60,876 nucleotides of DNA from Emiliania huxleyi CCMP1516 (taxonomy: Eukaryota): contig NW_005201381.1 of assembly GCF_000372725.1 (NCBI RefSeq), positions 369,953 to 430,828 on the forward strand, read 5' to 3'. The position numbers and the translations under genes were made by a program. Numbering within the stretch: the first letter of the stretch is position 1; each line of letters starts with the position of its first letter. The notes beneath the pieces are model-generated. The model was not told where the DNA came from, ran no database searches, and worked only from the letters and a program-made list of their open reading frames with translations. Positions 52,801 to 55,800 of this stretch are shown piece by piece.

Positions 52801-55800
52801 CAGCACGATGAGCTAATTGACACACTGATTAACTAGCTAGCAGTTCATTCATCTGTTGAGTAGCGCCTCGTCCAGCATGATGAGCGAGTAGCGCGACAGG
52901 TTGGTGTCGACGAGGCACTCGCGCAGCAGCATCCCGTCAGTCATGTACTTGAGGATCGTCTCGGGCGACGTGCAGTCCTCGAACCGGATCGAGTATCCAA
53001 CCTCCTGGCCCAGCCGGCAGCCAAACTCCTCGGCCACTCGCTTGGCGACCGACATCGCGGCGACGCGGCGCGGCTGCGTGCAGCCGATGATGCCGCGCGA
53101 CGTGAAGCCCGCCTAGCGCCACGCCTCCCAGAGTGGTCGACCCCAGTGTGTGTGGGGGGGGCTCAGGCTCCGTGGGCGGTGTGGCAGCGACTGCCTCGGC
53201 CATGAACTGTCTAGGAACTGTCTAGGAAGTGTCTAGGAAGTGTCTAGGAAGTGTCTAGGAAGTGTCTAGGAAGTGTCTAGGAAGGGACTGCCTCGGCCAT
53301 GAACTGCGTCATCTGCGTCGTCTTGCCGGAGCCCGTCTCGCCAATCACGACGAGGACCTGGTGAATCAACATATTCATTCATCAACGACTCTGTTAACTA
53401 GAGCCCGTCTCGCCAATCACGACGAGGACCTGGTGAATCAACATATTCATTCATCAACGACTCTGTTAATTAGAGCCCGTCTCGCCAATCACGACGAGGA
53501 CCTGGTGAATCAACATATTCATTCCTCAACGACTCTGTTAATTAGAGCCCGTCTCGCCAATCACGACGAGGACCTGGTGAATCAACAGATTCATTCATCA
53601 ACGACTCTGTTAATTAGAGCCCGTCTCGCCAATCACGACGAGGACCTGGTTCATCAACATATTCATTCCTCAACGACTCTGTTAATTAGAGCCCGTCTCG
53701 CCAATCACGACGAGGACCTGGTGAATCAACATATTCATTCCTCAACGACTCTGTTAATTAGAGCCCGTCTCGCCAATCACGACGAGGACCTGGTGAATCA
53801 ACATATTCATTCCTCAACGACTCTGTTAATTAGAGCCCGTCTCGCCAATCACGACGAGGACCTGGTGAATCAACATATTCATTCCTCAACGACTCTGTTA
53901 ATTAGAGCCCGTCTCGCCAATCACGACGAGGACCTGGTGAATCAACATATTCATTCCTCAACGACTCTGTTAATTAGAGCCCGTCTCGCCAATCACGACG
54001 AGGACCTGGTGAATCAACATATTCATTCATCAACGACTCTGTTAATTAGAGCCCGTCTCGCCAATCACGACGAGGACCTGGTGAATCAACATATTCATTC
54101 ATCAACGACTCTGTTAATTAGAGCCCGTCTCGCCAATCACGACGAGGACCTGGTTAATCACCATATTCATTCCTCAACGACTCTGTTAATTAGAGCCCGT
54201 CTCGCCAATCACGACGAGGACCTGGTGAATCAACATCATTCATTAACGACTCTGTTAATTAGAGCCCGTCTCGCCAATCACGACGAGGACCTGGTGAATC
54301 AACAGATTCATTCATCAACGACTCTGTTAATTAGAGCCCGTCTCGCCAATCACGACGAGGACCTGGTGAATCAACATCATTCATTAACGACTCTGTTAAT
54401 TAGAGCCCGTCTCGCCAATCACGACGAGGACCTGGTGAATCAACAGATTCATTCCTCAACGACTCTGTTAATTAGAGCCCGTCTCGCCAATCACGACGAG
54501 GACCTGGTGAATCAACAGATTCATTCCTCAACGACTCTGTTAATTAGAGCCCGTCTCGCCAATCACGACGAGGACCTGGTGAATCAACATATTCATTCAT
54601 TAACTGCTCTGTTAATTAGAGCCCGTCTCGCCAATCACGACGAGGACCTGGTTAATTAACAGATTCATTCATCAACGACTCTGTTAATTAGAGCCCGTCT
54701 CGCCAATCACGACGAGGACCTGGTGAATCAACATATTCATTCCTCAACGACTCTGTTAATTAGAGCCCGTCTCGCCAATCACGACGAGGACCTGGTGAAT
54801 CAACAGATTCATTCATTTACTACTCTGTTAATTAGAGCCCGTCTCGCCAATCACGACGAGGACCTGGTGAATCAACATATTCATTCCTCAACGACTCTGT
54901 TAATTAGAGCCCGTCTCGCCAATCACGACGAGGACCTGGTGAATCAACAGATTCATTCATCAACGACTCTGTTAATTAGAGCCCGTCTCGCCAATCACGA
55001 CGAGGACCTGGTGAATCAACATATTCATTCCTCAACGACTCTGTTAATTAGAGCCCGTCTCGCCAATCACGACGAGGACCTGGTTCTCCGCGACGGCGTT
55101 CACCAGCTCCTGCTTCAGCGCCTATTCGCAGTGAACGAGCAGTTATTCACTCATGCGTACGTCGAATCAGCCCGCTCCTGCTTGAGCGCCGCGATCGGCA
55201 GCGAGGCGCGCTGCTCCTGGATCGACTTGTTCTTGGTCGGGAAACCGATCGAGAAGCCCTTGCCCATCGACTTGACCTAGAGAAAAGAACGACGGCGCGC
55301 TAAAAAAGAAGGACGCCGCGCCGGTAGCCTTGCCCCATCGACTTGACCTTCCACTCCGGCACCGCCTCCTGCGTGTAGCCGAGGCCGCGCAGCTCCTGCG
55401 CGATGTGCCGCTCTCCCGGCTCCGGCATCGGGTCCTCCCACGGCCGGTTGAGGTCCTACGCAATCTCGTGCAATCTCGCGTCATCTCGCGTCATCTCGGG
55501 CGATCTCGGGCCGGTCGAGGTGCTAGGAGCTACGGCCGGCGGGGCTTGCGCTAAGTCTTCAGAGCACCGCGTGAGTACGGAGGAGTACGAGGACAGTGTG
55601 AAGACGGCCGTGACGGCGTCTGGAGGCGGCGGAATACAGTGGGGAGCTCCCGCTGCGAGGCAAGCGTACGTCCCCCGCTTCTAGGGGGTTGGCGTCCTTG
55701 GGGATTGCGTCCATCAGCGCTCGCTGCTGCGAGTCGCGCAGCTCGCGCCGCTCCTAATGAAACGATTAATCAACAGATTGATTACAGATTAACTAGCGAG

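What the first reader, a model, noticed from the sequence alone, without database searches (positions are those of the whole stretch)
53358..55079. 24 complete mini-introns in tandem before the helicase P-loop: possible recursive-splicing ratchet
Seen: on the minus strand the exon ends ..AACCAG|, followed by 24 units each starting GTCCTC.. (29 nt coding [10 protein letters not shown]) and ending ..TTCACCAG, then the true exon [15 protein letters not shown]. Every internal boundary is CCAG|GTCCTC, identical to the authentic donor context, so removing any number of units recreates the donor. Any retained unit reads ..GGC TCT AAT TAA, a stop inside Walker A. Established: AG|GT zero-length-exon sites define recursive splicing, and Prp22 acts in exon-ligation fidelity and mRNA release. 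Inference: the intron may be removed stepwise, and the array could act as a splicing-efficiency sensor or a VNTR tuning PRP22 level.
Basis: partly seen in the sequence, partly recalled or inferred. Interest (0 to 1): 0.85.

Follow-up and report, generated by a model that had tools for sequence, protein, structure and literature searches.

The report
Runaway intron module in algal PRP22
One intron of the splicing-helicase gene PRP22 in the alga Emiliania huxleyi is 24 head-to-tail copies of a 72-base unit (a copy of the neighbouring exon sequence plus a predicted hairpin), likely a runaway expansion of the same ~70-base module seen in most introns of this gene, and a natural but untested case for unit-by-unit splicing.

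Summary
The array is real: 24 units (22x72, 2x69 nt; 11 variants) form intron 9 of E. huxleyi PRP22/DHX8, all 23 inner borders read CCAG|GTCCTC, and a retained unit stops inside Walker A. Each unit is a 34-nt exon duplicate plus a 38-nt filler that folds end to end as a hairpin. It is not special within the gene. 13 of 20 introns have terminal direct repeats of 10 or more matched nt (5 of 380 control pairs). Simple modules are 66-73 nt long, some fillers are shared between introns, 6 introns carry inner borders, and unit numbers differ in a second genotype. RNA-like contigs hold several unit variants (5 of 6 runs) and, in one run, the fully spliced join; contigs cannot resolve a ladder. Best reading: a minisatellite grown by slippage or unequal exchange between the direct repeats of one introner-like module, probably removed piecewise as a by-product. 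One-step removal is almost as likely, and a sensor role has no support. The wider lead is the gene's intron architecture: long exon duplications supply the GC, GT and GA donors.

The parts
53358..55079 (-). PRP22 intron 9 (GT-AG, phase 0): array of 24 modules
55051..55084 (-). first 34-nt direct repeat: 5 nt upstream of the donor plus 29-nt copy of the downstream exon start; supplies the GT donor; invariant in all 72-nt units
55013..55050 (-). 38-nt AT-rich filler of unit 1, predicted end-to-end hairpin (commonest variant, 8 of 24 units)
54653..54690 (-). filler of unit 6: 17-nt arms, 88% complementary, 4-nt loop, outer 11 bp perfect
53329..53362 (-). last 34-nt direct repeat: real acceptor and start of the Walker A exon
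55080..55121 (-). 42-nt exon before the array ([14 protein letters not shown])
53292..53357 (-). 66-nt exon after the array, motif I GETGSGKT
49825..57779 (-). PRP22/DHX8 gene with 20 introns placed by homology (introns 1-2 less certain; an N gap near its start)
55980..56188 (-). intron 4: three modules (71, 68, 70 nt), 22-nt exon copy, GC donor
55754..55820 (-). intron 5: single 67-nt module, 25-nt exon copy, GA donor; filler shares a 12-mer with the array filler
55277..55347 (-). intron 7: single 71-nt module, spliced in 4 of 4 runs; two modules in L001
55122..55189 (-). intron 8: single 68-nt module, spliced in 4 of 4 runs
53113..53291 (-). intron 10: 97-nt module with 21-nt duplication (absent in L002) plus 82-nt part
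52650..52866 (-). intron 11: two 72-nt units (three in L002) plus a 73-nt module
52488..52556 (-). intron 12: 69-nt module; filler homologous to those of introns 13 and 14
52355..52423 (-). intron 13: 69-nt module
52019..52319 (-). intron 14: 11-mer-rich part plus a 73-nt module with 35-nt duplication
50504..50569 (-). intron 19: 66-nt module with 17-nt duplication across both splice sites
50039..50171 (-). intron 20: two modules (66 and 67 nt) with an inner AG|GT border

Best explanation
The array is a PRP22 intron made of 24 tandem copies of one exon-duplicate-plus-filler module, likely amplified by replication slippage or unequal exchange between its 34-nt direct repeats, and likely removed from the RNA in pieces at the inner borders as a by-product rather than as a regulatory device. 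Step 1 (inferred from anatomy): a 38-nt filler was inserted with a 34-nt duplication of coding sequence containing CCAG|GT, giving a 72-nt intron whose removal restores the frame exactly. Step 2 (shown as structure, inferred as process): repeat-filler-repeat is a substrate for misalignment, and each event adds or removes a whole unit. The filler's predicted hairpin would bring the two repeats together on a single strand, which may be why this module ran to 24 while others in the gene stopped at 1-3. Step 3 (shown at contig level in one run): mRNA without any unit exists. Step 4 (untested): each unit has the size of introns this gene splices singly, and the 23 inner acceptors share their upstream filler (11 variants of it) and 29 downstream nt with the last one, so nearest-site pairing would remove units or blocks stepwise.
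For: Anatomy. Gene-wide modules: 13 of 20 introns have 10 or more matched nt of terminal direct repeat versus 5 of 380 mismatched donor-acceptor pairs; 17 of 20 when inner modules are counted. In 18 of 20 the donor dinucleotide equals the first two bases of the next exon (13 GC, 5 GT, 2 GA donors). Shared fillers: introns 12/13/14, 16/18 and 6/17 score 36-78 against shuffle maxima of 18-30. Unit-number change: L001 has 2 modules at intron 7 (window 1); L002 has 3 units at intron 11 (window 2) and lacks the 97-nt module of intron 10. All four combinations of the two commonest filler variants occur among units, as exchange between units would give. Hairpin: RNA z -2.0 to -5.9 for 10 of 11 variants. 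Fully spliced form: in X2 one 780-nt contig runs through the upstream exons into 18 letters of the true exon. Unit sequence is covered in X1, X3, X6, X8, X9, with several variants in X6, X8, X9.
Against: No ladder, lariat or long read was seen; unit RNA fits plain unspliced pre-mRNA, and 89% of 535 inspected E. huxleyi introns show intronic reads (PMC4028052, passages). The same donor is recreated at the mature junction, so the cell must silence recreated donors; the exon junction complex is reported to do this in flies and mammals (PMC8605326, passages), which would hinder a 5'-to-3' ratchet. In the human F7 intron 7 VNTR only the first of identical donors is used (PMC1557585, abstract). In human introns under 1 kb conventional lariats outnumber recursive ones (PMC10156609, passages). 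The hairpin-expansion link rests on one case: of 17 other fillers only intron 7 reached p<0.05 as RNA, and the 2-3-copy modules of introns 4 and 11 did not. The hairpin shows no compensatory change (0 of 16 pairs). X2's join has only 18 letters unique to the far side, and its strain may lack the intron. The invariance of the 34-nt exon copy (11 variable columns, all in the filler; P about 4e-4 if random) is not explained by neutral drift alone; it could reflect conversion with the coding copy, hairpin-driven mutation in the filler, or selection on each unit's splice sites.
Confidence: 0.5

Rival explanations
1. Same origin as a minisatellite, but the intron is removed in one step: the first donor and the last acceptor are chosen (scanning plus definition of the 66-nt true exon) and the 23 inner borders stay silent.
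For: Human F7 intron 7 VNTR precedent (PMC1557585, abstract). [quoted passage not shown] Recreated donors at mature junctions must be silent for most introns of this gene. The predicted hairpin may hide a branch point inside each unit.
Against: F7 repeats only the donor, whereas here both sites repeat. The simple modules of this gene are 66-73 nt and the other 19 introns are 66-301 nt, so a 1.7-kb single step that bypasses 23 near-identical acceptors is atypical for this gene.
Confidence: 0.38
2. The array is a selected autoregulatory device: slow or incomplete stepwise splicing yields stop-containing PRP22 transcripts when spliceosome activity is low, and copy number tunes PRP22 level.
For: The gene is a splicing helicase. 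Unit sequence is covered in 5 of 6 RNA-like runs. The exon copies are invariant across units.
Against: 15 of 17 introns give a premature stop if retained. Five other introns have inner borders, and module numbers vary freely between genotypes. A sensor that lowers PRP22 when splicing is weak would be positive, not homeostatic, feedback (inference). No conservation beyond the species could be tested.
Confidence: 0.07
3. The array length is an assembly artefact of a draft genome (true allele 1-2 units).
For: The public draft is described as holding mis-assemblies and false duplications (PMC8531018, passages). No read or contig seen here spans the array.
Against: 11 variants in irregular order. 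L001 and L002 show at least two unit starts at each end. At least four distinct unit-variant contigs are listed in each of X6, X8 and X9.
Confidence: 0.05

Closest known systems
Minisatellites spanning an exon-intron boundary: human F7 intron 7 37-bp VNTR (PMC1557585, abstract seen); boundary tandem repeats in human segmental duplications (PMC2812944, passages seen)
   Same: A tandem repeat whose unit includes exon sequence and repeats an authentic splice site many times inside an intron.
   Different: Here each unit is a complete intron-sized module with both donor and acceptor, the whole intron is the array, and the same module type makes up most introns of the gene.
Introners that carry the 3' splice site and take the 5' site from a target-site duplication (PMC9860276, passages and supplement rows seen; 10.1101/2020.10.14.339549, passages seen)
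   Same: Insertion flanked by a duplication of coding sequence that supplies the GT/GC/GA donor and allows perfect splicing; phase 0 bias (12 of 17); related fillers at different sites. The PMC9860276 supplement lists 653 elements in 5 E. huxleyi families, two averaging 70 nt, with TSD and TIR left as '?' in four.
   Different: Reported duplications are 3-9 bp; here they are mostly 16-35 nt, and total module length rather than filler length looks constant. Most fillers lack terminal inverted repeats, and tandem amplification of whole modules did not appear in the passages seen. Whether these modules belong to the listed families could not be tested.
Intron gain by tandem genomic duplication of an AGGT-containing exon segment, and by break repair with short direct repeats (review PMC3443670, passages seen)
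   Same: Duplicated exon sequence around AG|GT gives both splice sites; intron 9 and intron 19 fit this for both sites.
   Different: A non-exonic filler lies between the copies, and in many modules the AG comes from the filler, not from the duplicate.
Zero-nucleotide-exon recursive splicing at ratchet points (PMC8605326 and PMC10156609, passages seen; 10.1101/006163, search listing only)
   Same: Adjacent acceptor and donor (AG|GT) inside an intron that recreate a donor after splicing.
   Different: Known sites are mostly isolated, conserved and in long introns, and are shown by intermediates or lariats. Here there are 23 identical sites 72 nt apart, made by repeat expansion, and their use is not shown.

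Membership tests
Recursive splicing (zero-length exon) | AG|GT sites inside an intron that recreate a donor | tested here: met
   23 inner borders identical to the donor context
Recursive splicing (zero-length exon) | Intermediates or lariats showing that inner sites are used | tested here: inconclusive
   Only 31-letter-word contigs were offered; the 34-nt repeat breaks them
Recursive splicing (zero-length exon) | Conservation of the inner sites across species | not testable with these tools
   No haptophyte genomes held; only L001 and L002 of the same species
Minisatellite / VNTR | Head-to-tail units with high identity | tested here: met
   Period 72, 24.5 copies, 96% matches
Minisatellite / VNTR | Copy number differs between individuals | tested here: inconclusive
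   Not measurable for this array (L001 and L002 end inside it); seen for introns 7, 10 and 11 of the same gene
Introner | Splice site recruited from duplicated coding sequence; perfect excision | tested here: met
   joints
Introner | Short (3-9 bp) target-site duplication | tested here: not met
   34 nt for intron 9; mostly 16-35 nt for other young modules
Introner | Family of similar elements dispersed over many unrelated genes | not testable with these tools
Introner | Terminal inverted repeats (present in some families only) | tested here: inconclusive
   Present in the array filler, not significant in most other fillers
PRP22/DHX8 DEAH helicase | DEAH core, HA2 and OB domains, N-terminal S1 domain, best hits named DHX8/PRP22 | tested here: met
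   (S1 shown on P0014, whose S1 region matches window 57304-56981)

The most novel reading that the evidence does not exclude
E. huxleyi gains introns by an undescribed route: ~70-nt modules made of a 16-35-nt duplication of coding sequence plus a filler copied from a nearby intron end. This would make the exon copy the source of its majority GC (and GA) donors, resolve the TSDs left open for its 70-nt introner families, and leave introns that grow and shrink by whole modules. Long introns such as this one are then stacks of minimal introns taken out one module at a time.
Probability: 0.3. Interest if true: 0.78.

Novelty: new variant of a known kind. Interest (0 to 1): 0.5.

Why it matters
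The array is a clean natural test of how a short-intron spliceosome chooses among identical donor-acceptor pairs, and whether recreated donors are reused or blocked. Alleles with different module numbers exist in the same gene. The wider pattern offers a concrete, countable explanation for the unusual majority of GC donors in E. huxleyi, which PMC4028052 (passages) ascribes to genome GC content. It also explains why gene models there misplace borders, because either copy of the repeat can be read as exon. Whether the pattern is genome-wide is open: in this window it is confined to PRP22.

Tried and rejected
No whole genome was held, so nothing genome-wide was counted. A genome-wide intron style is not supported by this window: the splice-anchored scan gave 17 of 18 hits in PRP22 and one at threshold at 163-234 (0-2 in 4 shuffles). 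An exact-repeat scan gave 10 PRP22 loci at spacing 66-73 or 97 among 26 loci. 0 of 7 introns read by eye in three neighbouring genes reached 10 matched nt. No run was on record as RNA or kept as raw reads; the six runs laid (6 of 9 listed) behave as RNA because contigs skip introns. Contig depth of the unit start was of the order of the exons (X6 100 vs 71, X8 144 vs 40, X9 58 vs 245), about 1-15% per copy if 24 copies. The tool warns that such depth is no measure of expression, so it is not used as evidence. Lack of cover over introns 7, 8, 12, lack of unit cover in X2, and no contig skipping the 66-nt exon are blanks, not evidence. An 11-mer filler pattern found nothing in viral or prokaryote collections. 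No Rfam family in 49500-60876. No covariation in the hairpin. Branch point not located. For intron 2 I kept the third-ranked join, so introns 1-2 are less certain. The cluster-member look-up could not be made. Ten paper searches listed no paper describing long exon duplications at E. huxleyi introns; only listings and the passages cited were seen. The 2013 genome paper is not held; it and its supplement, which I recall discuss repeat-rich introns, may bear on novelty. 'Mirage' minisatellites of amphioxus come from an unchecked scan note and recall; I did not read that work.

Full report
Identity. The exon at 50561-50962 is 100% identical to a protein that NCBI names an RNA helicase of Emiliania huxleyi CCMP1516, and 90% to proteins named DHX8/PRP22. 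Homology places the gene at 57779-49825 on the minus strand with 20 introns. The spliced frame from 56224 is open for 799 aa and matches P0014 at 707 of 801 columns. Contig joints confirm introns 7, 8, 10, 11 and 12 at the predicted places.

The observation. Intron 9 (55079-53358, 1722 nt) consists of 24 units, 22 of 72 nt and 2 of 69 nt, in 11 variants. All 23 inner borders equal the real donor context, and one retained unit ends the frame inside motif I. Two metagenome contigs of another genotype each end inside the array with at least two unit starts, and RNA-like contigs of X6, X8 and X9 hold several unit variants. The array is therefore real in kind; the number 24 rests on the window alone.

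Anatomy of a unit. A unit is better read as repeat plus filler than as a free-standing mini-intron. 34 nt of coding sequence (5 before and 29 after the splice point) are duplicated around a 38-nt AT-rich filler. The filler is an inverted repeat from end to end: 17-nt arms, 88% complementary, 4-nt loop in unit 6. RNA folding z is -2.0 to -5.9 in 10 of 11 variants and DNA z reaches -8. There is no compensatory change among 11 distinct fillers, so the hairpin is not shown to be selected. All 11 variable columns among the 22 full-length units lie in the filler (P about 4e-4 if random). Short inverted repeats are described as template-switch mutation sites (PMC8604942, passages), which could account for this, as could conversion with the coding copy or selection on each unit's splice sites.

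The gene around it. The same build recurs through PRP22. 13 of 20 introns have 10 or more matched nt of direct repeat at their two ends, against 5 of 380 mismatched donor-acceptor pairs. Four more hold such a module inside. Simple modules are 66-73 nt whatever the length of the duplicate. In 18 of 20 introns the donor dinucleotide equals the first two bases of the next exon; donors are 13 GC, 5 GT and 2 GA. Fillers of introns 12, 13 and 14 are homologous, as are those of 16 and 18 and of 6 and 17, and intron 5 shares a 12-mer with the array filler. Six introns have inner borders that recreate their donor. Module numbers differ between genotypes: intron 7 has two modules in L001; intron 11 has three 72-nt units and intron 10 lacks its 97-nt module in L002. 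Against a general claim, the pattern is confined to PRP22 in this window, and 0 of 7 introns of three neighbouring genes show it.

RNA. Nine runs hold 40-44% of the words of the stretch; none is on record as RNA and all are contigs. Six were laid on the two flanks. In X2 one contig passes from the upstream exons through the repeat into the true exon, with 18 letters unique to that side. This shows the fully spliced form, or a strain without the intron. In X1, X3, X6, X8 and X9 unit sequence is covered. Because the repeat (34 nt) is longer than the contig word (31), unspliced, partly spliced and lariat RNA cannot be told apart. Intronic reads are common in this species (89% of 535 introns; PMC4028052, passages).

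How it most likely works. Origin (inferred): insertion of a filler with a long duplication made a perfectly spliced 72-nt intron, in the logic of introners that take the donor from the duplication and of tandem-duplication intron gain. Misalignment between the repeats then added whole units, probably helped by the hairpin. I put this at about 0.85. Removal (untested): each unit has the size of introns that this gene splices singly, and little local sequence marks the last acceptor, which favours piecewise removal. The F7 precedent, the reported blocking of recreated donors by the exon junction complex, and the need to keep the same donor silent in mature mRNA favour one step. I put piecewise removal slightly ahead. 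Function: none is indicated. 15 of 17 introns give a premature stop if retained, so the stop in Walker A is not special.

Comparison with what is known. Splice-site-bearing minisatellites are known (PMC1557585, abstract; PMC2812944, passages), and earlier notes of this scan report similar arrays in other eukaryotes (unchecked), so the array alone is a variant of a known kind. Introners are already listed for E. huxleyi: 653 elements, 5 families, two averaging 70 nt, TSD and TIR unresolved in four (PMC9860276 supplement). That pipeline needs similarity within 10 intronic bases of both ends, so it would tend to miss modules that begin with 16-35 locus-specific bases (inference). The modules work like introners but fail the short-duplication feature, and membership could not be tested. 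Ten searches listed no account of the long duplications in this species; the 2013 genome paper was not available.

Verdict. Observation confirmed; recursive splicing plausible but unshown; sensor unsupported. New variant of a known kind, interest 0.5. Most of the value lies in the gene-wide module pattern and in the array as a test of splice-site choice.

Noticed in passing
window 49825-57779 (-): Young-looking module introns are dense in PRP22 (17 of 20) but absent from 7 introns of three neighbouring genes; why one conserved gene is such a hotspot is unexplained.
   Followed up: partly
window 52019-52556 (-): Three consecutive introns (12, 13, 14) end in homologous fillers at unrelated exon sites, suggesting local copying of an intron 3' end.
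   Followed up: partly
window 53204-53284 and 56861-57003: An 11-mer repeat filler; hundreds of contigs with different flanks match it in four runs, so it is a widespread repeat in this organism's transcripts.
   Followed up: no
window 51630-51620 (-): The window reads SRKGVIATN where the public model P0004 reads SRKVVIATN: a variant or a base error near a conserved helicase motif.
   Followed up: no
P0004 vs window 51850-51649 and 51144-51124: The public gene model drops about 22 residues (PSLPEL...EQQT) and adds intron-derived residues (TSPYLP; an extra A at intron 10), consistent with misplaced borders.
   Followed up: partly
window 37100-38530 (+) and 39980-41473 (-): A DDE_Tnp_4 (Harbinger-type) nuclease gene facing a second intron-bearing gene, likely a PIF/Harbinger element; the partner gave no Pfam hit on the one exon tried.
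   Followed up: partly
window 41780-43150 (+): Peptidase M50B-like gene with introns filled by 10-mer repeats.
   Followed up: partly
window 43789-43896, 58562-58616, 59483-59720, 60461-60515: A dispersed 16-20-nt repeat (GAGGTCCTCACG core) in short tandem runs upstream of PRP22 and at 43.8 kb, possibly ends of a mobile element.
   Followed up: no
window 59949-60145: Three identical 65-nt tandem copies without filler.
   Followed up: no
window 56630-56500 (-): Inside intron 2 as placed here, a stretch after GTGTAG reads [11 protein letters not shown], which may be a small unannotated exon; intron 2 borders are uncertain.
   Followed up: no
window 15198-15688: 49 perfect copies of a 10-mer.
   Followed up: no
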